From Candidatus Woesebacteria bacterium (lineage in GTDB: Bacteria > Patescibacteriota > Microgenomatia > UBA1406 > HO2-37-13b): a DNA stretch of 42,337 nt. The DNA is taken from the NCBI GenBank assembly GCA_018062605.1, contig JAGORW010000001.1:1-42337 (forward strand), in the 5' to 3' direction. Positions 1,359 through 27,278 of the stretch are shown one piece after another (position 1 is the stretch's first letter; each line of letters starts with the position of its first letter). The translations under genes were made by a program, and so were the position numbers. Under the pieces are notes generated by a model that was not told where the DNA came from, did no database searches, and saw only the letters and a program-made list of their open reading frames with translations.

Positions 1359-1435
1359 TGGTGGCTGTTGAGGGACTTGAACCCCCGACCTTTCGAATGT
1401 GAATCGAACGCTCTAGCCAGCTGAGCTAAACAGCC
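1359..1435 (-). tRNA. tRNA-Val (anticodon CAC), 3' CCA genomically encoded
   Basis: Hand-folded cloverleaf of GGCTGTTTAGCTCAGCTGGCTAGAGCGTTCGATTCACATTCGAAAGGTCGGGGGTTCAAGTCCCTCAACAGCCACCA. It has a 7-bp acceptor stem, D stem GCTC/GAGC, anticodon stem TTCGA/TCGAA with loop TTCACAT, T stem GGGGG/CCCTC, T loop TTCAAGT and discriminator A. Confidence 0.9.
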
Positions 1436-14270: not shown

Positions 14271-15401
14271 TTAATTAGTTCGGCGCGCTACACTAATCAC
14301 AATGCCCATCAAGCTGTAAAAAATCACTAAACTTGAGCCACCATACGAGATAAACGGAAGAGGAACACCAGTAAGAGGCATAATAGCTGTCATTCCTCCC
14401 AGATTAATCACAGCATGCAAACTCATTAATGTGAGAATTGATCCAGTAAGCAAAAAACCAAATCGATCTTTTGAATGAACGGCAACTTGATACAGTGAAT
14501 ATAATAGTAATAGATATACCATGATAAGCAAGACACTTCCAATAAATCCTACTTCTTCTCCAATAATTGCAAAAATTGAGTCTGTGTGTGCTTCTGGTAA
14601 GAACTGGTACTTTTGCCTTGAATTTGAAAATCCTCTCCCAAAAACACCTCCAGAAGAAAGCGAGATTAGAATTTGATTGATATGATAGCTTACTCCTTGG
14701 GGATCTGCCTTTGGATCCAAAAAAGACATAAGTCTTCTTAGCCGATATGGCGAAGCTATAATAAGCCCTATAACTCCGGCAAAAGCTATAGGTAAAAGCC
14801 CATATAAATACTTCAGTTTCTCTCCTGACAAAAAGTAGATCGCAATAAAAAGTGAGAATATTATTATTGATGTTCCTAAATCGGGTTGCATCATAACTAG
14901 GCCAATCATACCTGCCAGAATGAGAATAAAATGAAGAAAGCGTTTGCGATCTTTATACAAAAACCATGAAGAAAGATATAAAATAACTGAGATTTTAGCA
15001 AGTTCTGTCGGCTGAAATGAGAAAAAGCCAAAATTAATCCATCTGCGTGCCCCATACACTGTACTCCCGATGCCCGGGATGAGCACTGCAACAAGAAATA
15101 CTAATGAAACAAGAAGGAGTGGGAACGCAAAATAGTATAATCTTTTGTAATCAAAGTACGAGAAAAACGTCATCGCACAAATACCCAATAAGCACCAAAT
15201 AAGTTGTTGTCTAAAGAAATAAAAGCTATCTCCTAATTGACGAAATGCAGTAACTGATGATGCTTCAAAGATAAAAAATAGACCGATTATCGTTAATAGA
15301 ATTGGAAGAAAAAAAAGTAAGCCAATATTATGACGTTGAACCGCCAGAGCCTTGTTTGCGAAGGTTTTCTTGAATGTTTTCCTTTTGAGATGTTGTACCA
15401 T
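14271..15401 (-). CDS. ftsW: SEDS-family peptidoglycan glycosyltransferase FtsW
   Basis: QPTELAK, QPDLGTS, EAHTDSIFA and SYGGSS motifs. It sits between murD and murG, and its 5' end overlaps murD by 74 nt. Confidence 0.85.
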   Translation of the reverse strand: MVQHLKRKTFKKTFANKALAVQRHNIGLLFFLPILLTIIGLFFIFEASSVTAFRQLGDSFYFFRQQLIWCLLGICAMTFFSYFDYKRLYYFAFPLLLVSLVFLVAVLIPGIGSTVYGARRWINFGFFSFQPTELAKISVILYLSSWFLYKDRKRFLHFILILAGMIGLVMMQPDLGTSIIIFSLFIAIYFLSGEKLKYLYGLLPIAFAGVIGLIIASPYRLRRLMSFLDPKADPQGVSYHINQILISLSSGGVFGRGFSNSRQKYQFLPEAHTDSIFAIIGEEVGFIGSVLLIMVYLLLLYSLYQVAVHSKDRFGFLLTGSILTLMSLHAVINLGGMTAIMPLTGVPLPFISYGGSSLVIFYSLMGIVISVARRTN

Positions 15402-16617
15402 ATTTTAGAACAATGTCATGAAAATCAACTCCTCTTTCTGATAAGTTATTGTACATGAGATAGCTTGGTGCTCCTGGAGACAATAAACATATTGAACCTT
15501 TTGCGGTTAGTTCAAAAGCTTTTCCGACAGCTTCTTCCATTGACAAACAATCTTCAATGTGTGGGACATACCCATCAACATTTTCAATATCATTATATAT
15601 TTTTTTGTCAGTCTCTGGAAAGAGAAGAATATTTCTAACATTTTTATTGTGCAATTCCTGAGCCAACTCGGCAAACTCATATCCTCTATCTTGACCTCCC
15701 AAGATGATAGTATCAACCCTATCTAATGATTGAAGCGCCAAGATCGTTGCATTTGGATGAACCGATGCAGAATCGTCATAGAATGTTACATGTTGGAATG
15801 TGCCAACCTTTTCTATTCTATGTGGTAAGGGTTTAAACGTTCTAATTGCAGAAGAGAATTGATCATCGCTCACTCCTAAATGATGCGCAATAGCATACAC
15901 AGCTTTAAAGTTATCTGTGTGTGTTGTGTATGGTACTTCTGAAATAAGATGATCTATTGCGATGTGAGAAAAATCGGATCGATGACTTTTTGCTTGTGCA
16001 GTTAATGAGTCAGTCTCTGGTACAGAACCATTATAGAAAAGATAATCATCTTGAATTTGAAATGACGCTATATGAGACTTTGACTCAGCATAATTTTCAT
16101 ATGTGGGATGATTATGAAGCTCATGATATATATTTAGGAAACATGCAATATGAGGAGAGAATTTTATATCTTCAAGTTGGTAACTGGAGAGTTCTAAAAC
16201 AAAAATATCATCTTTCTCAATACCCATTTCAAAAGCATGAAGCATGGGATCTCCAATGTTTCCATACAGTCGGGACTGCTTACCTGCTTCAAGCAAAACA
16301 TGATGCAATAACCCAACTGTAGTGCTTTTACCCTTTGTGCCCGTCACTCCAATAATGGGATTCTTCACATTTCCAAAAAATAGATTCGTCCCCGTCGTAT
16401 ATGGAATTGTAAGTTTTTCTGGTCGAAGAAGAGGTGTTCGAATAGCCAAGTCATAATCCTTTTGCATTTCAAGATAATGAGGAGTGTCTTTTTGATCTGC
16501 AATGCCAATCTCTGCAGTTGGGTGAAATTTCTTAATAAAGCTCTCAGAAGCCTTACCTTCCAACCCATATCCTACGATGAGAATTCTTTTATATGTTTTT
16601 AGTTCATCGATTGTCAT
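15328..16617 (-). CDS. murD: UDP-MurNAc-L-alanine:glutamate ligase MurD
   Basis: N-terminal Rossmann segment ILIVGYGLEGKA, P-loop GVTGTKGKSTT, Mur ligase central and C-terminal domains. Confidence 0.9.
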   Translation of the reverse strand: MTIDELKTYKRILIVGYGLEGKASESFIKKFHPTAEIGIADQKDTPHYLEMQKDYDLAIRTPLLRPEKLTIPYTTGTNLFFGNVKNPIIGVTGTKGKSTTVGLLHHVLLEAGKQSRLYGNIGDPMLHAFEMGIEKDDIFVLELSSYQLEDIKFSPHIACFLNIYHELHNHPTYENYAESKSHIASFQIQDDYLFYNGSVPETDSLTAQAKSHRSDFSHIAIDHLISEVPYTTHTDNFKAVYAIAHHLGVSDDQFSSAIRTFKPLPHRIEKVGTFQHVTFYDDSASVHPNATILALQSLDRVDTIILGGQDRGYEFAELAQELHNKNVRNILLFPETDKKIYNDIENVDGYVPHIEDCLSMEEAVGKAFELTAKGSICLLSPGAPSYLMYNNLSERGVDFHDIVLKYGTTSQKENIQENLRKQGSGGSTS

Positions 16618-16623
16618 ATATTT

Positions 16624-17976
16624 TTACTGTGTATCACACATTTCTTTTAAGGCATCCTTGAATTGAGCTGGGATTCTCGAATCATCACCATACTCAAAAA
16701 CATTGTTTTTAAGCTTCTCAATATCTAATTCTGGCAGTACTTCATTTTCAAAATACTTCATAATTGGCTCATCTTTATACTCTCCTCCAGTATAAGCCAT
16801 ATACATTGCTACTGCGGTTTCCTCAGGCGTACCAACGCAATCAAGAGGTTTGATGCCAGTTTTACCAAGAAGTTCCATGTATCTCTCGAGACATTCAGGA
16901 TGTGCATAGAAGTCATCATCAAAAATTGTCAGGATGTCCTCTTTAGATAAGAAGGCTGTAAATAGGGCAAATACAAATTCCACTTTACCACGTGAATAGG
17001 TAATATCCCATCGACTCTGCTTCCCTTCTGTTTGTGTAAAATTATGATTACTGCTTGAGAATTTTGTGTAATACTTCTTAAATTGTGCAAATAGTTTTAC
17101 GATCTGAATTTCATGGAGGGGACGTAAAAGTGAAAAATAGTGCACATCCGTAGATATATATGTCTGAATGTAATCTTGCATCAACTTTTCAGCTTCAAAC
17201 GATTTGCTCCATTGATGATTAATAGTCATACCAAGATATTCAACACTTCCATAATTTGCACTCGCCTCATTTGAAACAACTACAAAGGCATAGGAATTGA
17301 TTAATGAATATAGCACTGCAACAAAGCTGTACATTGCTGTAATTGGAATGTGCCCCACGTAAGCATCCTTACTCTCCAAAAGGCTGAGCATCAGCGGATC
17401 CATTGTTCTTTTTATCATATGAATCTCTTTTCCAACCGCACCTGCAGATAATGCTTGAATAGGACTTGTGTGAAGAGAAAACAGATCAAAATGTATACCG
17501 GACTTACGCGTAATCTCTACAGAAAGGAGCGAATCCTTACCACCACCAAGAAGCACTAATGCCTTGTCAGATTGATATTGGGAAGAAAGGGGTTGTTTAT
17601 TGGGAGAATGAGCAGGAAAATGAATAAGATCCCGAAAGTCTAGTTTGTTTAGATAAAAAAACTCACCAAGGCCTTTCGTATACATAGTGTCCCAAAAGTC
17701 AGCTTGCTCGTGCGTTAGGTCATACGATAATGAAATGTGTGAAGCAACGTGCAATCTAAAGTAACTGATTCCTAAAAGAATATGAAGAGATTCAATTGCA
17801 GATTGAACATCTGCGCGTTCCATAATATCACGATTAAGAGGATGCGGGAACTGCAATGCTTCAGTAAACTCAAGTTTATCTCCCCCTTCTAGGATAGTTT
17901 GATACGAGAAATAAAGAGTATTTGTGTCATAGTCAATCTCGTACTTTGAAATAACAAACTCAATACCTTTTTTCAT
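16624..17976 (-). CDS. PP-loop (ATP pyrophosphatase-like) protein. Candidate MurL-type UDP-MurNAc-L-Ala-L-Glu epimerase.
   Basis: LVLLGGGKDS motif (aa 140-149; nt 17530-17559). 450 aa, packed with 3-6 nt gaps between mraY and murD. The functional call is inference from context and family knowledge. Confidence 0.45.
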   Translation of the reverse strand: MKKGIEFVISKYEIDYDTNTLYFSYQTILEGGDKLEFTEALQFPHPLNRDIMERADVQSAIESLHILLGISYFRLHVASHISLSYDLTHEQADFWDTMYTKGLGEFFYLNKLDFRDLIHFPAHSPNKQPLSSQYQSDKALVLLGGGKDSLLSVEITRKSGIHFDLFSLHTSPIQALSAGAVGKEIHMIKRTMDPLMLSLLESKDAYVGHIPITAMYSFVAVLYSLINSYAFVVVSNEASANYGSVEYLGMTINHQWSKSFEAEKLMQDYIQTYISTDVHYFSLLRPLHEIQIVKLFAQFKKYYTKFSSSNHNFTQTEGKQSRWDITYSRGKVEFVFALFTAFLSKEDILTIFDDDFYAHPECLERYMELLGKTGIKPLDCVGTPEETAVAMYMAYTGGEYKDEPIMKYFENEVLPELDIEKLKNNVFEYGDDSRIPAQFKDALKEMCDTQ

Positions 17977-17979
17977 GTG

Positions 17980-19017
17980 TTACTTCATGAAGGCAATCAT
18001 TAATCCAAGCATTGCAAAGAACAGAGCCGCAAGCCAAGCTCGCATGACTATTTTTGGTTCTTCCCAACCTCTGTACTGAAGCCACAAGTGGATCGGAGCT
18101 ACTGGGAAAAGTTTCTTTTTTCGGTACTTTTTGGAGAGAAGTTGCAAGAGTGATGAACTGATTTCAAGAACAAAAAATCCGCCGATAATTGCAAGAGCAA
18201 AAACCTTTCCTAAAAGCAGCCCTATTACAGCAAAAGTCGCACCGAATGAGAGTGCGCCAGTATCTCCCATAATAAGACGTGCCGGGTAGATATTAAAATA
18301 CAAGAAAGCTGCAAGACCTCCAGTCCAGGTACTAATGAGAATTAAAAGTGGGGTATCAAGAATAGAAAGTGAAATAACCCAGAATGCAAAAAGTGCAATA
18401 AGAAGAACACCTGTCGAAAGCCCATCAAGCCCGTCAGTGATATTCATTGCATTTGAGTAGGCCACAATAACAAATGTCGCAAATGGAATAAAGAACCAGG
18501 ACATGTTATACACGCCAAAGTATGGAACGTTGACAATGCTAATTTTCAGCTCGCTGAACATCCACCATGATATTATCCCTGCCAAAACAATTTCAAGTAT
18601 CAACTTATGGCGAAGACGAAGTCCAAAAAATGACTCATCATTCCAAATAAATATCTTTTTTAGATCATCATACAAACCTAAAAATGAAAAAGACAGAAAT
18701 GTGAAGAGAATGATTTTAAATTCTGAAACAATGTTGGGATAATTTGAAATGATATCTTGTTTAATAACGACATGGAAAACAGTGAACAGCGTGAACATGA
18801 GAAGAGTTGTCAGAATAATGAGAATTCCACCACCAACAGGGGTGCCCGCCTTGTGAGCATGAAACTTATCGAAGATAGGTGTCCTTTTATTGAAAGCATC
18901 ACGCGTTTCTTGTTGGGCACGTTGAAATTTCAATCTATAGAGAAGATTGATGAATGGCACAAAAAGTGCAAAATTTACAAAAAATGAAGCAAAAAATCCG
19001 AAAATATACAGTGACAT
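17980..19017 (-). CDS. mraY: Phospho-MurNAc-pentapeptide translocase MraY
   Basis: GLYDDLKK, NITDGLDGL and GDTGALSFG motifs. I placed the start at ATG 19017 (MSLYIFGFF..), 4 nt after the dgkA stop. The ORF-track start 19080 would overlap dgkA. Confidence 0.92.
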   Translation of the reverse strand: MSLYIFGFFASFFVNFALFVPFINLLYRLKFQRAQQETRDAFNKRTPIFDKFHAHKAGTPVGGGILIILTTLLMFTLFTVFHVVIKQDIISNYPNIVSEFKIILFTFLSFSFLGLYDDLKKIFIWNDESFFGLRLRHKLILEIVLAGIISWWMFSELKISIVNVPYFGVYNMSWFFIPFATFVIVAYSNAMNITDGLDGLSTGVLLIALFAFWVISLSILDTPLLILISTWTGGLAAFLYFNIYPARLIMGDTGALSFGATFAVIGLLLGKVFALAIIGGFFVLEISSSLLQLLSKKYRKKKLFPVAPIHLWLQYRGWEEPKIVMRAWLAALFFAMLGLMIAFMK

Positions 19018-19021
19018 ACTT

Positions 19022-19384
19022 TTAAAGTAACACTTTTGGCACAAAAATAATAGCTGCAACAATAGCAGCACCAATTGCATATGTCAACATCGCAGCAGCT
19101 GACGCATCTTTCGCAATCTTAATTTCCTCTCTCCATTCACGCGTAATTGCATCAGATGTAGCTTCAAGTGCTGTATTAATCGTTTCAATCACTAATCCAA
19201 CAGAGATTGTCAGAACAAGGAAAATCCACTCAAAAGGCTGAATATCGTAGTATAAGGCTGCTATAACAACAAGTGCAGACACAATAAAATGGACTCGATA
19301 ATTTGGCTGAGTTCTCCAAGACCATAAGACGCCATCAACAGCATGTTTTAAGGAAATTGTGTGTCTTTCAATAATTCTTTTCAT
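19022..19384 (-). CDS. dgkA: DgkA-family lipid kinase (diacylglycerol/undecaprenol kinase)
   Basis: 120 aa with 3 TM helices and an ETINTALE motif like the DgkA ELLNSAIE. Its start overlaps the yvcK stop as ATGA. Confidence 0.8.
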   Translation of the reverse strand: MKRIIERHTISLKHAVDGVLWSWRTQPNYRVHFIVSALVVIAALYYDIQPFEWIFLVLTISVGLVIETINTALEATSDAITREWREEIKIAKDASAAAMLTYAIGAAIVAAIIFVPKVLL

Positions 19385-20352
19385 ACAGTTCCAATAATGT
19401 CATGCAAGATATGCGCAATTTTTAATGGATCATGCCTCAAAATACTTCTTAACACTTCGTCAGATTCAGATTGATGTACAATTCCTGGTACTAACAAATC
19501 TTGTCGAACAACTGTGTACTGATTATCTAATGCATCATCTTTGACCGATTGAGCTCCATACTTCTTGTAGTATTGTACAACAGACTTCTGAATTGGTGCA
19601 TTATTTACCAATAGTATAGATACTTTTTTACCAAGATACTTCTCAATATCATTAATGTGATCCATTACGGTATATTTAGGTGTTTGCCCAGGTTTCGTCA
19701 TTAAATTTGAAATGTAAATTATCTTTGCTGACGACTTCTCTATAGCTTCCTTCATCCCATCCACTATAAGATTTGGGACAAGGCTTGTGTATACGTCTCC
19801 CGGTCCTACAATGATGTATTCGGCATTTTTAACTGCTTTCAATGCTTCTGGGTTGGCTTTAGCACGTGGCTTTAAATAGACCTTTTCAATTCTTTGAGTT
19901 TTATGAAATGCTGAATCAATTAAATCCTCAGTTTCAATGATCTCACCATCCTCATATTGTGCACATAAATGAACCTTATGATATGTTACAGGAATGACAT
20001 GACCCTTCGTTTGAAGAATGTAAGACGCCATGTCTATAACTTGGGAATAGTCTGGAGCAATTTTTTCCAGAACAGTAAGAAAGATATTTCCAAAATTATG
20101 GCCTTTAAAATCTCCATTCTCAAATCTATAGAGGAACAATTTGCGCCAGAGATCTGGAGCCTCAGAAAGGGCAACAAGACATTGTCTCATATCTCCTGGG
20201 GGCAATGCGCCATATTGGTCTCGAAGTTTACCTGTGCTTCCACCGCTGTCTACTGTGGACACAATGGCAGAAATATCATACGGAAACATCTTCAAACCAG
20301 ATAAAACAATAAATGTTCCTGTTCCTCCACCTATCACAACAACGCGTTTCAT
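19381..20352 (-). CDS. yvcK: YvcK/GlmR (CofD-like, UPF0052) family protein
   Basis: MKRVVVIGGGTG.., VDSGGSTGKLR and GPGDVYTS motifs. Confidence 0.85.
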   Translation of the reverse strand: MKRVVVIGGGTGTFIVLSGLKMFPYDISAIVSTVDSGGSTGKLRDQYGALPPGDMRQCLVALSEAPDLWRKLFLYRFENGDFKGHNFGNIFLTVLEKIAPDYSQVIDMASYILQTKGHVIPVTYHKVHLCAQYEDGEIIETEDLIDSAFHKTQRIEKVYLKPRAKANPEALKAVKNAEYIIVGPGDVYTSLVPNLIVDGMKEAIEKSSAKIIYISNLMTKPGQTPKYTVMDHINDIEKYLGKKVSILLVNNAPIQKSVVQYYKKYGAQSVKDDALDNQYTVVRQDLLVPGIVHQSESDEVLRSILRHDPLKIAHILHDIIGTV

Positions 20353-20359
20353 ACCTGAT

Positions 20360-20368
20360 ATTGTACCA
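20360..20368 (-). promoter_or_regulatory. Candidate extended -10 promoter (TGgTACAAT) for yvcK, leaderless geometry
   Basis: Minus strand reads TGGTACAAT-atcaggt-ATG(20352). The 8-mer array begins directly upstream. Confidence 0.5.
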
Positions 20369-20372
20369 TCTG

Positions 20373-20452
20373 GTGAACTTGTGAACTTGTGAACTTGTGA
20401 ACTTGTTAACTCGTAAACTGGTGAACTAGTGAACTTGTGAACTCGTAAACTA
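20373..20452. repeat. 10 x 8-nt perfect-register tandem array (GTGAACTT x4, GTTAACTC, GTAAACTG, GTGAACTA, GTGAACTT, GTGAACTC, GTAAACTA)
   Basis: Read directly: 80 nt with no spacers between units. Confidence 0.9.
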
Positions 20453-20476
20453 GAAGATTGATTGTTTTTTCCCTCC

Positions 20477-20508
20477 AGTTAACCAGTTCACAAGTTCACT
20501 AGTTACTA
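20477..20508. repeat. 4 inverted copies of the same 8-mer (AGTTAACC AGTTCACA AGTTCACT AGTTACTA). Right arm of a 28-bp inverted repeat.
   Basis: The reverse complement of 20477-20504 matches 20424-20451 at 26 of 28 positions, 20 of them contiguous. The loop is 25 nt. The array overlaps the stop codon of the 20506 gene. Confidence 0.85.
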
Positions 20509-21633
20509 ACTGATGAAGTAGCCCTGTACAAAGAATCCAAAAAGAAAAATATGGAGGATCAGTGATATTCCCAACAGAGTGTATCGTGCATTTTTAGAGG
20601 GAATCTGAGAAAAAACGTAATACAGTGACAATACCATCAATGCATACCGAGGCGTTGATGAGAATGTACCCGTTAATGAAGGTACAACAATGTGCGTCAA
20701 TGAATAAAGCGCAAGACTCATGTTAAAAATATCTTGTTTTCTATATGCAAGCCATCCATGGATTGCCACAGCAACCAAACTTACTGAAACAACAAGAAAC
20801 TCTAGTACGGCAATGAAATATTGAAAGTTTGGCTGAGCTGTTACAAAAATCTTTATGTATCTATAGTACACCTGAAAAATTGTTATGAGTTCTGTGGACC
20901 GTTGTGCTCCAAAAATTGGTTGAGAATTGAAGAAATATAAGGGATCACCTGTCGTCTTCCATAAAAAGGTCATATAGAGTGATAGGCCAATACAAGGGCT
21001 GATTGCCAAAACGTATGTCCAGATTGATTTCTTGTCCATATGCAAATACGCATATGCTAGGAATGGAATCACGAGAAAAACGCCTTGGAGTCGTACAAAA
21101 GAGCTTAACCCCGCCAATATACAGGCTACTACAAACTTTTTACGTAGCAGATAAAATAGCGCACTCACTGTTAACAATAAAAACAAGCTCTCCGTATAGA
21201 CTGCCGAAAAGAAGAAGGAGGTCGGGATAAGAAATAGGAATGTTATTGCCAACACCGCACTTTTCTTACCATAGAGCTCCTTAAACAATCTATAGAAATA
21301 CCATCCTGCAGCTATAAATGCGGCGTTCGAGATGAGAATTCCTGCATGCAAATAATAGTGGCCAAACATTCCCCCAAAAAATTGCACTAACAAAATATAT
21401 CCTGGGAAATATGCTTGGTCATACTGATGATAGCCTTGCAAAGCGATGTGGATGTAGTGAGCACCATCAAAATTTGCCCATGAGTATACCCAAAATGGAA
21501 GTTTAAAATTTTGAATAACATCTTTATATGGAAAGTTTCCACTATAGGGGATAAGCAGATAGATCCAGGCAGCGATAATTGAATATATAAGAAAGCGAAT
21601 TCCAACAAAATATGCGAGTTTCTTCCAGGTCAT
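20506..21633 (-). CDS. GT-C fold membrane glycosyltransferase, PIG-V/mannosyltransferase-like
   Basis: Polytopic membrane protein with W.NFDGAHYIHIALQGY....AYFPGY, typical of bacterial PIG-V-like proteins. Its start overlaps the murA stop as ATGA. Confidence 0.6.
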   Translation of the reverse strand: MTWKKLAYFVGIRFLIYSIIAAWIYLLIPYSGNFPYKDVIQNFKLPFWVYSWANFDGAHYIHIALQGYHQYDQAYFPGYILLVQFFGGMFGHYYLHAGILISNAAFIAAGWYFYRLFKELYGKKSAVLAITFLFLIPTSFFFSAVYTESLFLLLTVSALFYLLRKKFVVACILAGLSSFVRLQGVFLVIPFLAYAYLHMDKKSIWTYVLAISPCIGLSLYMTFLWKTTGDPLYFFNSQPIFGAQRSTELITIFQVYYRYIKIFVTAQPNFQYFIAVLEFLVVSVSLVAVAIHGWLAYRKQDIFNMSLALYSLTHIVVPSLTGTFSSTPRYALMVLSLYYVFSQIPSKNARYTLLGISLILHIFLFGFFVQGYFIS

Positions 21634-22961
21634 ATTCTTCTAATATTGGCACCGAGTGCCGTTAATCGGTCTTCAATCTTTTCATACCCTCTGTCTATTT
21701 CTGAAGCTCCCATAATCACTGACTCACCTTCTGCAGCGCATGCACCAATCAATAGTGTTGCACCTGCACGCATGTCAGTTACCTGTAATACCCCTCCATG
21801 AAGTGCCGTCGGACCATGAATTAAAATTGCTTGCCGTTCATCATTAAATGTAGATACATCCTCAATGTCAAATTGATAGATGTTCTGCGGATCAACAACG
21901 CTAGGTTTGTAATATTCAATGTTCGCTCCTAATTTATTCAATTCTGTAACATAGCCAAATCGATTTTCAAATACTGTTTCATGAATTCGTGAATCTCCGA
22001 GTGCTTGTGTCATAAGGACTGCCCATGGAGCTTGCCAGTCAGTCATAAAGCCAGGATCGGTACTTGTCATCACATCAACGGCTTTGAGCTGACCTATAGA
22101 GTAAAAACGAATTGCTCCATCTCGGACTTCATATCCTCCACCAATTTTGTCTAAATATTCTAGGAAGACTGTGAGATTTTTTTGATCAGCACCTTGGACT
22201 GTTATATCACCCTCTGTTGCTAGGGCAAACATTGCAAACGTCACCGCGTTATTTCTATCAGATTTTATGGAAAATTCATCAACTCCATGCAGATCTTTAA
22301 CTCCATCAACATGAATATCTTCTCCATCTCTCTTAATAGTAGCGCCAGAGATATTGAGAAGTTCAATAAGTTCATCTATTTCTGGTTCTAATGAAGAGTT
22401 TCTAATAACTGAGTGTCCTTCTGTAGAGGCCGCAATCATTAATGCTAATTCTGTACCTGTGTGAGTTTTCTTTGGAAAAGTAAAGTCAGCAGGAACTAAT
22501 TCAGTCTCTACCTGAGCAGAATAATATCCAGTTTCAGAATCATACTCTGTTTTTACCCCAAAGGCATTCATAAGCTGTACCATTCTATCGATTGGTCGCG
22601 CACCAATGCGACATCCACCGGGGTTAGGAATCCTGGCTTTTCCATATTTTTTTAGGAATGGAGCAAATAGCAAAAATGAAGCACGAATTTTTGATCCAAA
22701 CAGTAAACTTACCTCATGGGAGTGAATGCTCTCAGGATCAATTTTTACTACGCTATCTTGAAAATCCACTTGGACTCCAATTTCCTTAAAGAGTTCAAAT
22801 AATTCTCGAATATCTTTAATATTTGGAATGTTGCGTAACGTAATTGGTTTATCAAATAATAATGCCGCCACCACTACTTTAAGAGCAACATTCTTAGCCC
22901 CTTCTAAAGCAACAGTTCCTATCAGAGGCTTTCCACCTTTAACAATAAATGCATTTTCCAT
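21630..22961 (-). CDS. murA: UDP-GlcNAc 1-carboxyvinyltransferase MurA
   Basis: GAKNVALKVV, and active-site Cys in NPGGCRIGARPID (E. coli PGGCAIGARPVD). Confidence 0.95.
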   Translation of the reverse strand: MENAFIVKGGKPLIGTVALEGAKNVALKVVVAALLFDKPITLRNIPNIKDIRELFELFKEIGVQVDFQDSVVKIDPESIHSHEVSLLFGSKIRASFLLFAPFLKKYGKARIPNPGGCRIGARPIDRMVQLMNAFGVKTEYDSETGYYSAQVETELVPADFTFPKKTHTGTELALMIAASTEGHSVIRNSSLEPEIDELIELLNISGATIKRDGEDIHVDGVKDLHGVDEFSIKSDRNNAVTFAMFALATEGDITVQGADQKNLTVFLEYLDKIGGGYEVRDGAIRFYSIGQLKAVDVMTSTDPGFMTDWQAPWAVLMTQALGDSRIHETVFENRFGYVTELNKLGANIEYYKPSVVDPQNIYQFDIEDVSTFNDERQAILIHGPTALHGGVLQVTDMRAGATLLIGACAAEGESVIMGASEIDRGYEKIEDRLTALGANIRRI

Positions 22962-22975
22962 ATTTTTTACGTTAT

Positions 22976-23887
22976 TTATAATCGAACAATTTCTTCGTGA
23001 AGTTCAATATTATGTGTTTTTTTAACAGTGCTTTTTATATGCTCAATCAATTGAGCAACATCATCTGGAGTTGCACCACCAGTATTAATAATAAAATTTG
23101 CATGCAAATCTGAAACCTGAGCACCTCCAATTGAAAAACCTTTCAGCCCTGCTTCATCAATAATTTTACCAGCTGAAACACCGTCTACGTTTTGAAAGAA
23201 ACATCCAGAGGTTGCAACACCATATGGTTGTGTCCGCTTTCGATGAGCACGTGCGTCTTGCGCGTGCTGCATCAATTCTTCAGCAGGCTGCTTTTCCAGT
23301 TTAAAATCTGCCCAGACAATACATTCATGCGTCTCTTTAATAATACTATGGTCATACCTAAAGTTGAAATAATCATGATCTACTTTTTTTGTTGTACCAT
23401 CTTTTTCAACTAAGAGAGCTTGAATAACCGGATCTCCCACATACTTGTCTGGCTTATGTTTATACCATCCTGAATTCATAGCAATACCCCCTCCAACGCT
23501 TCCCGGCAATCCAGATTGATATTCAAGTCCAGCATATCCTGCTTCAGCTGTTTCATTGGCAAGTCGTGACATATTAAAGCCAGACCCAACACGAAGCACC
23601 ACATACGTATCGGTTTCTTCAATAAGGTTTTTATAGCTATTGAGATTCTTAACAACGAGTCCTTTAATACCCTTCTCTCCAACAACAACATTAGAAATAC
23701 CTCCCAATGTAATATAGGGAATGTTCAGATCATGAGCTGCTTTGACAGCATTAATTAGGTCATCATCGGACTCTGCCTCAAAATAGAATTCAGCAGGGCC
23801 ACCTAATTTAAAGGTTGATCGAGGACCCAAATCAACATTCTCTCTCACCCTCCCAACTCCCACATATTTTTCTAATTCTTTAAGCAT
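22976..23887 (-). CDS. murB: UDP-N-acetylenolpyruvoylglucosamine reductase MurB
   Basis: FAD-binding PCMH-type N-terminus (FKLGGPAEFY, LGGISNVV) and MurB C-terminal domain. 303 aa. Confidence 0.9.
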   Translation of the reverse strand: MLKELEKYVGVGRVRENVDLGPRSTFKLGGPAEFYFEAESDDDLINAVKAAHDLNIPYITLGGISNVVVGEKGIKGLVVKNLNSYKNLIEETDTYVVLRVGSGFNMSRLANETAEAGYAGLEYQSGLPGSVGGGIAMNSGWYKHKPDKYVGDPVIQALLVEKDGTTKKVDHDYFNFRYDHSIIKETHECIVWADFKLEKQPAEELMQHAQDARAHRKRTQPYGVATSGCFFQNVDGVSAGKIIDEAGLKGFSIGGAQVSDLHANFIINTGGATPDDVAQLIEHIKSTVKKTHNIELHEEIVRL

Positions 23888-25309
23888 TTATTCAGTTTTT
23901 TTAGATGTAATAACTTCAATTATAGCATTGTGAAGCCTAAAGATGTTGCTGGCACCCATTGTGAGAATAACATCTCCATGATGCAGTTCTTCCCGCAAAA
24001 TATATGAGACTTTCTCTTCATCAAGATACTCAACATGTTCATACCCTTTATTCTGAGCATAATCCACAATATCCTGAGAACCAACTGAATCTGCGGTTTG
24101 AGTCTCACGAGCAGATGCATATACATCCAAAATAAAAGCCTTATCAGCAATCTGTAAGACTTCAGCAAAGTCTACTTTGAAAGCTTCCGTACGAGAAAAT
24201 GTATGAGGTTGGAACAGCACGATAATTCTCCTATTTGGATATGTCATCCGAGCTCCTCTTAATGTTTCCCTAATTTCCGATGGGTGATGAGCATAATCAT
24301 CTATGAGAATGTAATCGTCACTTTCATAAACATGTTCAAACCTTCTTTTTGAGCCAGTAAAAGTAGCAACATGTTTTTTAATATCCTGGAGATTGAAACC
24401 CTTAAGATACAAAAGAATAATCGCACCAGTAATGTTTTTCACATTATGCTCTCCAGATAGGTGAGATCTCCAATCGCCTGTGTTTTGTCCATCAAGTGTA
24501 AGTGAGAAAACAGTCATTCCGTTATCCACATGAATATCAGAGATCTGAGCAAAGTGCCCAGCTGTAGTGCTATAGCCATATATATTTACATCGGTTATCG
24601 ATTGTGCGACCTCTGATAAAGCTCGTTCATCTGCACAATACATCAATGCCCCATCTGCTGGGAGTTTTTCAAAAAAAGAGCGAAAGGCTACTTTCGTATC
24701 ATCAATGGATTTATATATATCCACATGATCATGCTCGATATTTGTGCAAAGAATATGTGTTGGATTTTGGAACATAAATCGAGGAGTGTTATCTGTTCCA
24801 GGTGATGCAGCGTATTCATCAGATTCAACAACAAAATATTCATCACCTGTGTAATCTCCTCCTGGTAATCCTGAAAATGATGGAGCCCCTACTTGATATC
24901 CACATGGCGCATCCATTTTTACCAATAAATATGCAAGCAATGAGGAAACGGTCGTTTTGCCATGCGTTCCACACACCGCAATTCGTGTCTTGAAATCATC
25001 CATAAGTTTCCCCAAACCTTCTGCATGTGTCATAACAGGAATGCTTTTTTCTCTTGCCGCTAATACTTCAGGATTTTTTAATCCACCATGAGCACCTGTA
25101 GTAATAACTAAATCAATCTCGGATGTTATATTTTCTATACCAAATGGTTTCACTTCAATGCCGACCTTTTCTAAGAGGGCATCAGCAGGCTCTCGTGTCT
25201 GAACATCGGCGCCCCAAACATGCTTCCCCATCTTTTTTAGAATTGCAGCAAGTGAAGACATTCCTGCGCCTTTTATCCCGAGCATATATATGTTTGTATA
25301 GTTGTCCAT
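23888..25309 (-). CDS. murC: UDP-MurNAc:L-alanine ligase MurC
   Basis: GIKGAGMSSLA, P-loop CGTHGKTT, DDYAHHPSEI. Confidence 0.93.
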   Translation of the reverse strand: MDNYTNIYMLGIKGAGMSSLAAILKKMGKHVWGADVQTREPADALLEKVGIEVKPFGIENITSEIDLVITTGAHGGLKNPEVLAAREKSIPVMTHAEGLGKLMDDFKTRIAVCGTHGKTTVSSLLAYLLVKMDAPCGYQVGAPSFSGLPGGDYTGDEYFVVESDEYAASPGTDNTPRFMFQNPTHILCTNIEHDHVDIYKSIDDTKVAFRSFFEKLPADGALMYCADERALSEVAQSITDVNIYGYSTTAGHFAQISDIHVDNGMTVFSLTLDGQNTGDWRSHLSGEHNVKNITGAIILLYLKGFNLQDIKKHVATFTGSKRRFEHVYESDDYILIDDYAHHPSEIRETLRGARMTYPNRRIIVLFQPHTFSRTEAFKVDFAEVLQIADKAFILDVYASARETQTADSVGSQDIVDYAQNKGYEHVEYLDEEKVSYILREELHHGDVILTMGASNIFRLHNAIIEVITSKKTE

Positions 25310-25310
25310 A

Positions 25311-26018
25311 TTATTTCATTATAAAACTCCAATTTCTGGTTCGTATGTCAGAAATATCATAATCTTTTCTATCATATGAAAAAAACATATCAGTTTCACA
25401 GCGTGTGCAATGAATATCCATATCAATGTGCTCTTCCTTAATTCCTTCCGCTTGATACTGCAATGCATTTAATCGAGGTAGACTTATATAGGTATTATCT
25501 CCATCTATTTGAGTAAAATCATCAAACCACTTGGTATATGTGCTCTTGAAATCCTCATATCTCTGATCATAAAGCCTGTTGCAACAATCTTGCAATGAAG
25601 GTCCAAGAGCCACTCGAATGTTATCCACTTGGCATCCACATGAAACAAGCTTTTCTACGGCAACTTTAGCCATATTGGCAATGGTGCCTCTCCATCCTTG
25701 ATGCGTTACTGCAGTAATCTGCGCAACCGGATCAAAGTATACTGCTGGAACGCAATCTGCTGTTTTGAGAAGTAAAACAACATCGGAAAGATCAGTAATC
25801 ATTCCATCTAGATTATCTATTCGTGTCATTTTCTCTTGAGGAGCATTTTTTATAACTTCAATAGTCGCACTGTGTACCTGTAACATTGAAATATAATTAT
25901 TGGCTTCAATTATTTCTTCAATCGGCGGAGTTTTTTTTGTGCCAAATCCTGAAATCACTCCAAGATCTTTTAAGAGAGAGGATTCAAAATACTGATGCTG
26001 ATCATTAAGTATAAACAT
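25311..26018 (-). CDS. pgeF: YfiH/PgeF (DUF152, purine nucleoside phosphorylase/peptidoglycan editing factor) family protein
   Basis: VHSA.., TADCVPAVY and THQGWRG motifs, and a C..C pair near the C-terminus. 235 aa. Confidence 0.85.
   Translation of the reverse strand: MFILNDQHQYFESSLLKDLGVISGFGTKKTPPIEEIIEANNYISMLQVHSATIEVIKNAPQEKMTRIDNLDGMITDLSDVVLLLKTADCVPAVYFDPVAQITAVTHQGWRGTIANMAKVAVEKLVSCGCQVDNIRVALGPSLQDCCNRLYDQRYEDFKSTYTKWFDDFTQIDGDNTYISLPRLNALQYQAEGIKEEHIDMDIHCTRCETDMFFSYDRKDYDISDIRTRNWSFIMK
25318..25323 (-). promoter_or_regulatory. Possible internal -10 box (TATAAT) 8 nt upstream of the murC ATG
   Basis: Minus strand reads TATAAT-gaaataat-ATG(25309). Confidence 0.35.
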
Positions 26019-26024
26019 GTATTA

Positions 26025-27260
26025 TTATTTCTTTGCAATGGCCCTTTCTACGGCTTTATATTCATCCCAAGGAAATTCCTTCAATTTACGTGCAAGACTT
26101 TGTTCATGTCCTTTTCCAGTGAGTACTACTACATCTCCTTTTTGAGCAAAATCGATGGCAAATTCAATAGCCTTCTGACGATTTTTAATAATTGTGAAAG
26201 CCTTTCCATCAAAATTTCGCTCCTTAAGAACATCAGGCTCCATATAGCTAAAGCCTTTCTCATACAAGCCTGCACTCACCATTCGTGTGATCTTCATAAA
26301 ATCTTCAGTTCTATAATCTTCCTCAGTAATGATTGACACATCAGCATATGATCCACTCGATTTACCCATCTCAGGGCGCTTCACACTATCGCGAAGCCCT
26401 GCAGATCCAAACACATGGATAAGCGTATTACGTGGAGTCTTAAGGCCTTTCAAGAGCTGTGCAATTGAGTGGGGAGTATGAGCAAAATCAATATACACAG
26501 TAAAGTCCTTGTCATATACCTTATCCAGTCTGCCTTTTGGCAACGCAAACGTCTTGATTCCTTTGAGAATATCTTCAGCAGATAAACCCAACTCTTTGCA
26601 ACATGCATATGCTGCCAATATATTTTCACGATTGAATGTTTCTTTAATTGACGTTTTTATTTCATCAGACCAGTGCGTTGGTGCATTCTCATTGATTAAA
26701 GAATACGTGGTATATTTTTTGTGAGCTTTATCTAAAATGCCTTTAATCTGTTCGTACACATCCGCGTCCTCATTGATAATTACCTTTTTTGCATTCAAAA
26801 GAAGCTTTGCTTTAGTACGAACATACGCATCGAACGTTTTATGATAATCCAAATGCTCTGGCGTAATGTTCGTCAATACACCAACCTCATACTGTACACC
26901 CCACACTCTATGTTGATGTAGCGCATGAGAAGTAGTTTCTAAAACAAAGAATTCTGAGCCATTCGTGAGAGCTTGTGCAAGATTTTTCTGAACGACCCAA
27001 TGGTTTTCAGTTGTAAAGTGCAGACCTGTATCGCCAATATTCCCAGCTATGTCAGCCAACACTGTTGATGCCATTGAGACTTTTTTTCCGGCAGTTTTGA
27101 GAATGTGATAGATAAGATGAGAGGTTGTCGTTTTGCCATCAGTTCCTGTGACTCCAATAATGCGCATTTTACGACCCGGAAATCCATAGCGCACATTTGC
27201 TGCAATAGCGCCATATTTATGGACTTCGTTCTTTACAGCTCGCACAAGTGACTGATACAT
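26025..27260 (-). CDS. murE: MurE-like Mur ligase (UDP-MurNAc-L-Ala-D-Glu:diamino acid ligase) lacking the usual N-terminal domain
   Basis: P-loop GVTGTDGKTTT. ETTSHALHQHRV..LTNITPEHLDYH and VFGSAGLRDSVKRPEMG..ADVSIITEEDYRTED align by eye with E. coli MurE VFGCGGDRDKGKRPLMG..ADVAVVTDDNPRTEE. The start is ATG 27260 or TTG 27269 (ORF-track start). Confidence 0.8.
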   Translation of the reverse strand: MYQSLVRAVKNEVHKYGAIAANVRYGFPGRKMRIIGVTGTDGKTTTSHLIYHILKTAGKKVSMASTVLADIAGNIGDTGLHFTTENHWVVQKNLAQALTNGSEFFVLETTSHALHQHRVWGVQYEVGVLTNITPEHLDYHKTFDAYVRTKAKLLLNAKKVIINEDADVYEQIKGILDKAHKKYTTYSLINENAPTHWSDEIKTSIKETFNRENILAAYACCKELGLSAEDILKGIKTFALPKGRLDKVYDKDFTVYIDFAHTPHSIAQLLKGLKTPRNTLIHVFGSAGLRDSVKRPEMGKSSGSYADVSIITEEDYRTEDFMKITRMVSAGLYEKGFSYMEPDVLKERNFDGKAFTIIKNRQKAIEFAIDFAQKGDVVVLTGKGHEQSLARKLKEFPWDEYKAVERAIAKK

Positions 27261-27278
27261 AACGCTCAAAAATGACTA

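What the first reader, a model, noticed from the sequence alone, without database searches (positions are those of the whole stretch)
16624..17976. PP-loop protein between mraY and murD: candidate MurL-type glycopeptidyl-glutamate epimerase or a new peptidoglycan-precursor enzyme
Seen in sequence:
- A 450-aa ORF sits between mraY (stop 17980) and murD (start 16617) with gaps of only 3 and 6 nt. In canonical dcw clusters mraY and murD are directly adjacent.
- The ORF carries an SGGxDS-type PP-loop, L-L-G-G-G-K-D-S (aa 142-149, nt 17530-17553). This is the signature of ATP-pyrophosphatase/adenylating alpha-hydrolase folds.
- By eye the rest of the protein does not resemble TilS, QueC, NadE, GuaA, ThiI or asparagine synthetase.

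Established knowledge: in Xanthomonas oryzae a variant MurD (MurD2) adds L-Glu to UDP-MurNAc-L-Ala. An adjacent ATP/Mg-dependent protein of about 450 aa, MurL, then epimerises the terminal L-Glu to D-Glu. This bypasses glutamate racemase.

Inference:
- An adenylating PP-loop protein of this size glued to murD fits MurL, and the neighbouring MurD may then be L-Glu specific.
- If it is not MurL, it is an uncharacterised ATP-PPase-fold enzyme embedded in the lipid II precursor operon, which would be more novel.
Basis: partly seen in the sequence, partly recalled or inferred. Interest (0 to 1): 0.72.

Follow-up and report, generated by a model that had tools for sequence, protein, structure and literature searches.

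The report
MurL glutamate epimerase in a CPR bacterium
The gene between mraY and murD in this Candidatus Woesebacteria contig is a homologue of MurL, the ATP-using enzyme that flips L-glutamate to D-glutamate on the cell-wall precursor; it belongs to a known family, but a large part of that family lies in the ultra-small Patescibacteria (CPR), which the papers I could read do not mention.

Summary
In detail: a 450-aa ORF (16624-17976, minus strand) lies 3 nt after mraY and 6 nt before murD and carries GGGKDS at aa 144-149.

- The protein matches the NCBIfam MurL model nearly end to end (E = 8e-89).
- It carries Pfam MurL_N and MurL_epimerase_C.
- It is 32% identical over 443 aa to an annotated Xanthomonas sacchari MurL that passes the model's own cut-off.
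- The downstream MurD shows the published MurD2 (L-Glu-adding) pattern: Arg348, Pro414, aromatic 416, no Lys319 and, by alignment, Glu182.
- In all 75 assessable relatives out of 80 species genomes, murD follows the MurL gene on the same strand. In 20 of them the two are fused into one protein.
- AlphaFold2 plus Foldseek place the core among PP-loop ATP-pyrophosphatases, closest to QueC.

Two departures from characterised MurL:
- The gene sits inside the division and cell-wall cluster.
- The protein belongs to a monophyletic clade that has lost all four cysteines of a QueC-like Cys4 motif, while keeping 83 of 88 conserved columns under purifying selection.

Not shown: absence of murI from the whole genome, and enzyme activity.

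Verdict: new member of a known family, moderate interest.

The parts
16624..17976 (-). [quoted passage not shown]
   Evidence: NF041275 MurL at E = 8e-89, covering protein 7-445 on model 12-445 of 447. Pfam MurL_N plus MurL_epimerase_C, precomputed. 32% identity over 443 aa to X. sacchari MurL, E = 9e-65. AlphaFold2 mean pLDDT 92.9.
17530..17547 (-). PP-loop GGGKDS (aa 144-149), the predicted ATP pyrophosphate-binding loop
   Evidence: Invariant in all 64 aligned homologues. Identical in X. sacchari MurL and 74 of the 80 loci; the other 6 read SGGKDS, GAGKDS or GGGRDS. Aligns with the SGGKDS of TtuA in a profile search, E = 0.0013. The fold matches PP-loop enzymes.
16975..17061 (-). Former Cys4 site (aa 306-334): FSSSNHNF...RWDITYSRGKVEF where typical MurLs have FSSCNRNF...WCGxCxKC
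   Evidence: All four Cys are replaced, by S309, D324, R329 and V332. This is the lowest-confidence part of the model, with block pLDDT 54 and 73.
16819..16851 (-). KPLDCVGTPEE motif (aa 376-386) with the family-invariant Cys380, a candidate catalytic acid/base
   Evidence: K376, P377, C380, V381, G382 and E386 are invariant in 64 sequences. C380 is present in all 80 loci and in Xanthomonas. The catalytic role is an inference.
15328..16617 (-). [quoted passage not shown]
   Evidence: TIGR01087 scores 237 bits, but that model does not separate MurD from MurD2. The specificity positions match MurD2.
16105..16137 (-). MurD segment LNIYHELHNHP, equivalent to E. coli 177-188: Glu aligned with Asp182, and a one-residue deletion at the His183 column
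   Evidence: The same motif occurs in L085 and L087, with similar ones in L005 and L009.
15757..15777 (-). MurD segment DDSASVH: Ala at the position of E. coli Lys319 and Val at Thr321
   Evidence: Lys319 is present in all five solved D-Glu MurDs seen and in none of the 73 MurL-linked MurDs.
15673..15699 (-). MurD segment GGQDRGYEF: Arg at the position of E. coli Lys348
   Evidence: Arg in 73 of 73 MurL-linked MurDs.
15451..15486 (-). MurD segment LLSPGAPSYLMY: Pro at position 414 and Tyr at position 416, as in Xanthomonas MurD2 (GAPSF)
17980..19080 (-). mraY. The true start is probably Met22 at 19017, giving the 345 aa seen in relatives

Best explanation
The ORF encodes a MurL orthologue that works with the MurD encoded directly downstream to make the D-Glu residue of the peptidoglycan precursor without free D-glutamate.

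Step 2 (inferred from homology, fold and the published biochemistry of Xanthomonas MurL): MurL binds ATP through its PP-loop GGGKDS. It adenylates the alpha-carboxylate of the terminal L-Glu, which makes the alpha-proton acidic. [quoted passage not shown]

The product goes to MurE, which is encoded in the same cluster. The core of MurL is a QueC-like PP-loop domain flanked by family-specific N- and C-terminal domains.

In this lineage the QueC-like Cys4 site has been replaced by polar and aliphatic residues. That site is presumed to be structural zinc. I expect the enzyme to stay active without it.
For: Homology:
- NF041275 MurL matches at E = 8e-89, nearly end to end.
- Pfam MurL_N plus MurL_epimerase_C are present.
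- The protein is 32% identical over 443 aa (E = 9e-65) to X. sacchari MurL, which itself scores 836 bits against a cut-off of 700.

Partner enzyme:
- The window's MurD has Glu (by alignment) at 182, Ala at 319, Arg at 348, Pro at 414 and Tyr at 416.
- X. sacchari MurD2 has E, I, R, P and F at these positions; E. coli MurD has D, K, K, A and L.
- PMC8788868 reports that E197D/R358K switches MurD2 to D-Glu use, and that K319T lets E. coli MurD accept L-Glu.
- Among 73 MurL-linked MurDs, position 319 is never Lys, 348 is Arg in 73, 414 is Pro in 69, and 416 is Tyr or Phe in 72.
- Five solved D-Glu MurDs have Lys319 and Ala414.

Linkage:
- In 75 of 75 assessable loci murD lies downstream on the same strand.
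- Twenty of these are single MurL-MurD fusion ORFs, and one was confirmed by HMMs.

Chemistry:
- Foldseek's best hits are QueC, QatC, Cap9, ThiI, TtuA and MnmA, all PP-loop ATP-pyrophosphatases.
- A sequence profile hits the TtuA PP-loop.
- Xanthomonas MurL consumes ATP and forms AMP (PMC8788868, PMC5808125).

Still functional:
- pN 0.16 against pS 0.74.
- 83 of 88 highly conserved columns are retained.

Context: the window contains murA, murB, murC, murE, mraY, murG and ftsW but no Asp/Glu racemase or class-IV aminotransferase.
Against: - The MurL score of 298 bits is far below the Xanthomonadales equivalog cut-off of 700. A Pseudonocardia plasmid paralogue with no murD neighbour scores higher, at 323 bits. 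The HMM alone therefore does not fix the function.
- All four cysteines conserved in Xanthomonas MurL and in 77 of 80 related loci are missing here. If they were catalytic or held a needed metal, activity could be lost or changed.
- The MurD has a one-residue deletion at the conserved His183 column and Val at Thr321. This makes the Glu182 assignment depend on the alignment and hints at a remodelled active site.
- Only 42 kb of the genome is visible, so a murI or dat gene elsewhere is not excluded. At least one CPR bacterium is reported, by title, to have an active glutamate racemase (Penalver 2024, cited in PMC11974145).
- No biochemistry exists for any CPR MurL.
Confidence: 0.8

Rival explanations
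1. It is a MurL-family paralogue with altered chemistry. The PP-loop enzyme still adenylates the terminal carboxylate of the MurD product, but the outcome differs. It might amidate (a QueC-like carboxylate-to-amide step giving iso-glutamine), or act on a different position-2 residue, because this clade has remodelled both MurL and MurD.
For: - The Cys4 motif is lost and there is a clade-specific R311H change.
- The MurD of the same sub-clade has lost the His183 column and changed Thr321 to Val and Thr322 to His.
- QueC, the closest fold, turns a carboxylate into an amide and then a nitrile through an adenylate (fold match; the QueC chemistry is from general knowledge).
- MurL-like paralogues outside any murD context exist.
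Against: - 83 of 88 conserved family columns are unchanged, including the PP-loop, H209, E237, HQW 254-256, K258, K331, K376 and C380.
- The differences are confined to the four Cys.
- Gene order with murD is identical to that of Cys-type relatives.
- MurE downstream in the pathway needs a glutamate gamma-carboxylate.
Confidence: 0.08
2. It is a decaying or inactive MurL. After losing its metal site it is retained only as a structural partner of MurD, and D-Glu comes from a murI elsewhere in the genome or from the host.
For: - Four otherwise near-universal cysteines are lost.
- The segment is modelled with low confidence.
- CPR bacteria depend heavily on hosts (general knowledge).
- A CPR glutamate racemase has been reported (title only).
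Against: - The ORF is intact and under strong purifying selection, with pN 0.16 against pS 0.74.
- The Cys-less clade is monophyletic and diverse, with 24 of 64 sampled sequences down to about 40% identity. Synteny was the same in the three relatives examined, P0002, P0006 and P0015.
- The PP-loop and all other invariant residues are retained.
- The partner MurD lacks Lys319 and keeps Arg348 and Pro414, the L-Glu-type pattern. That pattern would make MurL indispensable.
Confidence: 0.06
3. It is a generic PP-loop enzyme (QueC, TilS, ThiI or similar) that lies in the division and cell-wall cluster by chance.
For: The PP-loop motif and a QueC-like core fold.
Against: - No Pfam or NCBIfam hit to any of those families; the only significant family hit is MurL.
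- The N- and C-terminal domains are MurL-specific.
- Linkage or fusion to murD in 75 of 75 assessable relatives.
Confidence: 0.01

Closest known systems
[quoted passage not shown]
   Same: - Same length (450 against 451 aa) and full-length collinear homology, 32% identity.
- Same GGGKDS PP-loop, and the same conserved H209, E237, HQW, K258, K331, KP..CVG..E residues.
- Encoded immediately upstream of a MurD2-type ligase.
   Different: - Lacks all four cysteines of the C-x15-C-x2-C-x2-C motif.
- Lies inside the division and cell-wall cluster between mraY and murD. In X. sacchari the pair sits next to a bifunctional aspartate kinase/diaminopimelate decarboxylase gene, with no cell-division or other mur genes in the 13 kb examined.
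- The host is a Patescibacteria (CPR) bacterium, a group not listed in the published distribution (PMC8788868, PMC5808125).
- Scores 298 bits against an equivalog cut-off of 700.
[quoted passage not shown]
   Same: The window's MurD shares Arg348, Pro414, an aromatic residue at 416, a non-Lys residue at 319 and (by alignment) Glu182 with Xanthomonas MurD2.
   Different: - One-residue deletion at the His183 column (HE-LHNH in place of PEHLDWH).
- Val in place of Thr321.
- About 27-30% overall identity.
QueC (7-cyano-7-deazaguanine synthase) and QueC-like defence proteins QatC and Cap9
   Same: - Closest solved folds: TM 0.56-0.63 normalised to QueC, Foldseek probability 1.0.
- PP-loop near the start of the domain.
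- In typical MurLs a C-xn-C-x2-C-x2-C motif lies about 165-185 residues after the PP-loop, as in E. coli QueC (Cys188/197/200/203).
- Both enzyme types activate a carboxylate with ATP.
   Different: - No sequence similarity beyond the PP-loop (hhalign aligns 16 columns).
- MurL has an extra N-terminal domain of about 125 aa and a helical C-terminal domain of about 110 aa.
- The substrate is a UDP-muramyl dipeptide.
- The window's protein has no Cys4 site.
MurI glutamate racemase
   Same: Functional analogue: both supply the D-Glu of the stem peptide.
   Different: Unrelated fold and chemistry. MurI is cofactor-independent, uses two cysteines, is reversible and acts on the free amino acid. No MurI is encoded in the window.

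Membership tests
[quoted passage not shown] | Full-length sequence homology to experimentally characterised MurL lineages | tested here: met
   NF041275 matches at E = 8e-89 over model positions 12-445 of 447. The protein is 32% identical (E = 9e-65) to X. sacchari MurL, which passes the equivalog cut-off. The score of 298 bits is below the Xanthomonadales-specific cut-off of 700. Family membership is therefore met, and equivalog status by NCBI's rule is not.
[quoted passage not shown] | Pfam architecture MurL_N + MurL_epimerase_C | tested here: met
   Precomputed Pfam hits PF26299 and PF26298 on P0001, which is identical to the window's protein. The local Pfam copy lacks these two models, so one search found nothing.
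[quoted passage not shown] | Conserved PP-loop (GGGKDS) consistent with ATP to AMP chemistry | tested here: met
   Invariant in 64 of 64 aligned sequences and present in Xanthomonas MurL. The PP-loop fold is supported.
[quoted passage not shown] | Cys4 motif SSCNRNF...WCGxCxKC | tested here: not met
   The window has S309, D324, R329 and V332. The motif is present in Xanthomonas and in 77 of 80 loci. The literature does not list this motif as a defining feature. It is a conserved feature that I noticed in this work.
[quoted passage not shown] | Encoded next to a MurD2-type ligase | tested here: met
   murD starts 6 nt downstream. In 75 of 75 assessable relatives murD lies downstream, and 20 are fusions.
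[quoted passage not shown] | Genome lacks glutamate racemase (murI) and D-amino-acid aminotransferase | not testable with these tools
   Neither is in the 42-kb window. The rest of the MAG could not be fetched.
[quoted passage not shown] | ATP/Mg-dependent, unidirectional L-to-D epimerisation of the terminal Glu with AMP release | not testable with these tools
   This is a biochemical property, described for Xanthomonas, Micromonospora and Salinispora enzymes in PMC8788868.
MurD2 (L-Glu-adding MurD) | Glu at the position of E. coli Asp182 (Xoo Glu197) | tested here: inconclusive
   MAFFT places Glu165 of the window's MurD at this column, but only with a one-residue gap at His183. An alternative register would put His there. 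Among 73 MurL-linked MurDs the column is Glu in 59 and Asp in 15.
MurD2 (L-Glu-adding MurD) | Arg at the position of E. coli Lys348 (Xoo Arg358) | tested here: met
   The segment GGQDRGYEF carries Arg. Arg is found in 73 of 73 linked MurDs. It is not sufficient on its own: S. agalactiae D-Glu MurD also has Arg here, and the paper reports the same for S. mutans MurD.
MurD2 (L-Glu-adding MurD) | Loss of Lys319, and Pro414 plus an aromatic residue at 416 (Xoo Pro433/Phe435) | tested here: met
   The window has Ala, Pro and Tyr at these positions. Lys319 and Ala414 are present in E. coli, P. aeruginosa, 7sir, S. agalactiae and T. maritima MurD. Lys319 occurs in 0 of 73 linked MurDs.
MurD2 (L-Glu-adding MurD) | L-Glu and not D-Glu is the substrate in vitro | not testable with these tools
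   Requires an enzyme assay.
QueC family (PP-loop, Pfam QueC) | Sequence-profile match to QueC, and the Zn Cys4 site | tested here: not met
   There is no Pfam or NCBIfam QueC hit. hhalign aligns only the PP-loop. The window's protein has no Cys4 site. Fold similarity alone is met. It works like a QueC-type adenylating enzyme but is not a QueC.

The most novel reading that the evidence does not exclude
The Woesebacteria/Microgenomates sub-clade represented here has changed both partners. Its MurL has no Cys4 metal site and carries R311H. Its MurD lacks the His183 column and has a changed glutamate pocket (Thr321Val, Thr322His).

The most novel reading my evidence does not exclude is that this pair no longer performs plain L-Glu addition followed by epimerisation. 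It might instead install or modify the position-2 residue differently, for example by amidation through the adenylate, or by using a different acidic amino acid. That would give a non-canonical stem peptide.

A separate, more likely and less radical reading is that MurL/MurD2 is the usual D-Glu route across Patescibacteria. I put its probability at roughly 0.6.
Probability: 0.08. Interest if true: 0.7.

Novelty: new member of a known kind. Interest (0 to 1): 0.45.

Why it matters
MurL/MurD2 is described in the papers I could read as confined to a few genera: Xanthomonadales, a few Alphaproteobacteria and rare actinomycetes (PMC8788868).

Here it sits in the core division and cell-wall operon of a Candidatus Woesebacteria genome. 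At least 592 species-representative genomes encode a relative, and the best 80 loci carry titles from many Patescibacteria lineages. A quarter of those 80 are MurL-MurD fusion proteins.

If confirmed, three things follow.
- It would explain how many of these reduced genomes obtain D-Glu without a racemase.
- The pathway would no longer look like a narrow-spectrum drug target specific to a few pathogens.
- The naturally Cys-less clade offers a ready-made test of whether the conserved Cys4 site of MurL is catalytic or only structural. The MurL mechanism is still unresolved.

No paper in the searchable library links MurL to CPR bacteria. Database annotations from JGI and Pfam already recognise the family there, so the novelty is limited.

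Tried and rejected
- The local Pfam-A scan of the ORF gave only sub-threshold glycosyltransferase noise, because that copy lacks the MurL models. This is not evidence against MurL.
- A PDB sequence search with the single protein found nothing. No MurL structure has been solved.
- hhalign of the family profile against E. coli QueC aligned only 16 PP-loop columns at low probability. The QueC relationship therefore rests on fold and on motif spacing.
- The TIGR01087 murD hit cannot separate MurD from MurD2. Xanthomonas MurD2 passes it too.
- The genome-contig scan returned only the best 80 loci, all CPR-type. It gave no Xanthomonas, actinobacterial or other outgroups. The Xanthomonas reference pair came instead from a tblastn against PLSDB.
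- I could not read Penalver et al. 2024, on glutamate racemase in Ca. Saccharimonas aalborgensis, by DOI or PubMed id. Only its title is used.
- I could not search the rest of this MAG, or complete CPR chromosomes, for murI or dat.
- I considered a link between the MurD His183-deletion variant and the Cys-less MurL clade. It is not strict. L009 has Cys-type MurL with the variant MurD, and L089 has Cys-less MurL with canonical His183.
- Literature searches combining MurL with CPR terms, or CPR with glutamate racemase, found nothing on this topic.
Full report
**1. Observation**

- A 450-aa ATG-initiated ORF occupies 16624-17976 on the minus strand.
- The upstream ORF (17980-19080) ends 3 nt before it, and the downstream ORF (15328-16617) starts 6 nt after it.
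- L-L-G-G-G-K-D-S is aa 142-149, nt 17530-17553.

The neighbours are a MraY-family transferase and a MurD-family ligase.
- MraY: Pfam Glycos_transf_4 at E = 4e-30. TIGR00445 scores 178 bits, just under its cut-off of 192.
- MurD: TIGR01087 scores 237 bits against a cut-off of 212.

The window is a long division and cell-wall cluster on the minus strand. The gene order is mraZ, rsmH, a small ORF, a class-B PBP, murE, pgeF, murC, murB, murA, a PMT_2-like membrane protein, yvcK, dagK, mraY, the ORF, murD, ftsW, murG, ftsQ, ftsA, ftsZ, then ileS and rodA.

The protein is identical to NCBI 'hypothetical protein KBC70_00095 [Candidatus Woesebacteria bacterium]' on a contig of the same 42,337-base length as the window. 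The organism is therefore a Patescibacteria (CPR) member.

**2. What the ORF is**

- The only significant curated family hit is NCBIfam NF041275, MurL. The match has E = 8e-89 and 298 bits, covering protein 7-445 on model 12-445 of 447. The score is below the model's cut-off of 700, which is tuned to Xanthomonadales.
- The protein database carries precomputed Pfam hits PF26299 (MurL_N) and PF26298 (MurL_epimerase_C) for this exact sequence and for all 120 listed homologues. The local Pfam copy lacks those models, which explains the empty result.
- A tblastn against PLSDB found an annotated murL in a 508-kb Xanthomonas sacchari record. That protein passes the equivalog cut-off at 836 bits. It is 32% identical to the window's protein over 443 collinear residues, E = 9e-65.
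- In X. sacchari, murL is also followed directly by murD.

**3. The partner MurD**

PMC8788868 reports three relevant results.
- Xanthomonas MurD2 differs from E. coli MurD near the glutamate site: Glu197 for Asp182, Arg358 for Lys348, Pro433 for Ala414 and Phe435 for Leu416.
- The E197D/R358K double mutation switches MurD2 to D-Glu use.
- K319T lets E. coli MurD accept L-Glu.

I aligned E. coli MurD, X. sacchari MurD2 and the window's MurD, using crystal numbering (Met1 numbering minus 1):

| E. coli position | E. coli MurD | X. sacchari MurD2 | Window MurD |
|---|---|---|---|
| 182 | Asp | Glu | Glu (by alignment) |
| 319 | Lys | Ile | Ala |
| 348 | Lys | Arg | Arg |
| 414 | Ala | Pro | Pro |
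| 416 | Leu | Phe | Tyr |

Five solved D-Glu MurDs have Lys319 and Ala414: E. coli, P. aeruginosa, entry 7sir, S. agalactiae and T. maritima.

Caveats:
- The window's MurD has a one-residue deletion exactly at the His183 column (LNIYHE-LHNHP), so the Glu182 assignment depends on the alignment.
- It also has Val at Thr321.
- TIGR01087 does not distinguish MurD from MurD2, because X. sacchari MurD2 passes it.

**4. Comparative genomics**

The best 80 loci are listed.
- Many titles name Patescibacteria lineages: Roizman-, Woese-, Woyke-, Levy-, Uhr-, Morani-, Kaiser-, Taylor-, Falkow- and Staskawiczbacteria, Saccharimonadia, Peri-/Peregrinibacteria and Gracilibacteria.
- About 20 more are titled only 'uncultured Gammaproteobacteria bacterium', and a few 'uncultured bacterium', 'Weeksellaceae' or 'Bacillota'. 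I did not check their taxonomy.

ORF analysis of these loci gave:
- In 20 loci, MurL and MurD are one ORF of 812-990 aa. HMMs confirmed one case, L025, with MurL at 5-443 and MurD at 466-836.
- In 55 loci, murD lies downstream on the same strand. In 51 of these the gap is 177 nt or less, and the commonest arrangement is a 4-nt overlap.
- In the remaining 5 loci, the contig ends right after the MurL gene.
- MraY is immediately upstream in only 10 of 80 loci. The conserved unit is therefore murL followed by murD, and the position between mraY and murD is specific to this lineage.

Among the 73 MurL-linked MurDs with the relevant region present:
- Position 319 is never Lys (Ile 62, Leu 5, Ala 4, Ser 2).
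- Position 348 is Arg in all 73.
- Position 414 is Pro in 69.
- Position 416 is Tyr or Phe in 72.
- Position 182 is Glu in 59 and Asp in 15.

Family size: there are 978 clusters at 50% identity with E <= 1e-30, and about 18 of the best 150 are fusion-length proteins.

**5. Fold and mechanism**

- AlphaFold2 gives a confident model, with mean pLDDT 92.9 and pTM 0.92.
- Foldseek against the PDB returns PP-loop ATP-pyrophosphatases at the top: QatC, QueC (2pg3 and 3bl5, TM 0.56-0.62 normalised to QueC, probability 1.0), ThiI, Cap9, TtuA and MnmA.
- The E-values are marginal, about 1e-3.
- A model of a Cys-type relative, P0061, again has B. subtilis QueC as its best hit, with TM 0.63.
- The family profile aligns its GGGKDS segment with the SGGKDS of TtuA, E = 0.0013.

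This fits the published finding that MurL consumes one ATP, forms AMP and acts only from L to D. It also fits the published hypothesis of alpha-carboxylate adenylation (PMC8788868, PMC5808125). Those reviews state that MurL lacks known conserved domains, so the QueC-like PP-loop assignment adds mechanistic support.

Candidate acid/base residues come from invariance: C380, H209, H254, K258, K331 and K376. This is inference only.

**6. A variant feature**

Xanthomonas MurL and 77 of 80 loci carry SSCNRNF...WCGxCxKC. This motif has the same C-xn-C-x2-C-x2-C pattern as the four C-terminal cysteines of E. coli QueC, and lies at the same distance from the PP-loop.
- E. coli QueC: PP-loop at residue 9, Cys at 188, 197, 200 and 203.
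- X. sacchari MurL: PP-loop at 147, Cys at 311, 327, 330 and 333.

That these QueC cysteines bind zinc is from my general knowledge of the QueC structures. I did not test it here.

The window's protein has S, D, R and V at these four positions.
- The 24 Cys-less sequences among the 64 sampled form a single clade in a neighbour-joining tree rooted on Xanthomonas.
- Of 88 columns that are at least 95% conserved in Cys-type proteins, 83 are unchanged in the Cys-less clade. Four of the five differences are the cysteines. R311H is specific to the clade.
- Against a 73%-identical relative, pN is 0.16 and pS is 0.74.
- Three close relatives keep the mraY-murL-murD-ftsW-murG-ftsQAZ order.
- The segment is the least confident part of the window's model, with block pLDDT 54 and 73, against 80 and 79 in the Cys-type model.

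I read this as the loss of a structural metal site in an enzyme that is still functional. This is not proven.

**7. Cautions**

- MurL-like paralogues on Pseudonocardia plasmids score 323 bits on the MurL model and keep the PP-loop, the CxxCxxC motif and ECVG. They lie next to a WD40 protein with no murD nearby. HMM similarity alone does not fix the function, and here context carries much of the weight.
- The window has no Asp/Glu racemase or class-IV aminotransferase, but it is only 42 kb.
- A 2024 paper, known to me only by its title as cited in PMC11974145, reports glutamate racemase activity in Ca. Saccharimonas aalborgensis. Some CPR bacteria do have MurI.

**8. Comparison with what is known, and novelty**

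The ORF is a member of the known MurL family, and its neighbour is a MurD2-type ligase.

New relative to the papers I could read:
- The host group. The published distribution lists Xanthomonadales, three alphaproteobacterial genera and rare actinomycetes, with low-similarity orthologues in cyanobacteria, a fungus and an amoeba.
- The location inside the division and cell-wall operon.
- The frequent MurL-MurD fusions in relatives.
- The Cys-less clade.

No paper in the searchable library mentions MurL together with CPR terms. JGI already labels some CPR homologues as the epimerase, and Pfam models cover them.

I rate this as a new member of a known kind with an interesting variant, interest 0.45.

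Noticed in passing
L025:9992-12514 and 19 other loci (L032, L035, L040, L041, L047, L051, L060, L062, L063, L065, L066, L070, L072, L073, L075, L077, L079, L080, L083): Single ORFs of 812-990 aa fuse MurL (N-terminal) to MurD (C-terminal) in 20 of 80 species genomes. About 18 of the best 150 cluster representatives are also fusion length. I found no mention of such fusions in the papers searched.
   Followed up: partly
window 16975-17061; also P0002-P0028, P0032, P0063, P0078, L004, L005: A monophyletic MurL clade, whose named members are Woese-/Roizmanbacteria and Microgenomates, has lost all four cysteines of a QueC-like C-xn-C-x2-C-x2-C motif. It keeps 83 of 88 conserved columns.
   Followed up: yes
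window 16105-16137 (MurD aa 161-171); same motif in L085 and L087, similar in L005 and L009: The MurD of this sub-clade reads NIYHE-LHNHP. The otherwise conserved His183 column (His in 72 of 75 sequences with this region) is deleted or shifted, and a His replaces the Asp two residues later. Thr321 is Val and Thr322 is His. This is unexplained. It may be a compensating rearrangement of the Mg and glutamate site.
   Followed up: partly
L003:5959-7359 (Pseudonocardia alni plasmid pPaSha1); also hits H3 and H4: MurL-like paralogues on mobilizable actinobacterial plasmids score 323 bits on the MurL model and keep GGGRDS, CNDCAKC and ECVG. They have no murD neighbour and lie next to a 1,300-aa WD40 protein. 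Their function is unknown and probably not peptidoglycan precursor epimerisation.
   Followed up: no
window 26025-27269: MurE is only 414 aa and matches the TIGR01085 model from position 63 onward. The PBP gene ends 9 nt upstream. The usual N-terminal domain of MurE appears to be missing.
   Followed up: no
window 19017-19080: The longest mraY ORF (366 aa) overlaps dagK by 59 nt. Relatives have a 345-aa MraY, so the true start is probably Met22 at 19017.
   Followed up: partly
window 19022-26018: The cluster carries extra genes compared with the classical division and cell-wall operon: pgeF (peptidoglycan editing factor) between murE and murC, then murB, murA, a PMT_2-like membrane protein, yvcK and dagK, all upstream of mraY. 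murF, ddl and alr are not in the window.
   Followed up: no
L002 (NZ_CP010410.1, X. sacchari R1 'plasmid unnamed', 508 kb): This record is labelled a plasmid but carries murL-murD2, an aspartate kinase/diaminopimelate decarboxylase gene and ssb. It may be a chromosome fragment or a chromid.
   Followed up: no
L005, L006, L008, L012, L014 and others; L021, L032: About 20 MAG records titled 'uncultured Gammaproteobacteria bacterium', and single records titled 'Weeksellaceae' and 'Bacillota', carry MurL homologues 37-44% identical to this Woesebacteria protein. Several, such as L005, L006, L008 and L012, also share the mraY-murL-murD-ftsW-murG order. The taxonomic labels look doubtful.
   Followed up: no
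window 1359-1435: tRNA-Val (CAC) on the minus strand is the only RNA gene detected in the window.
   Followed up: yes
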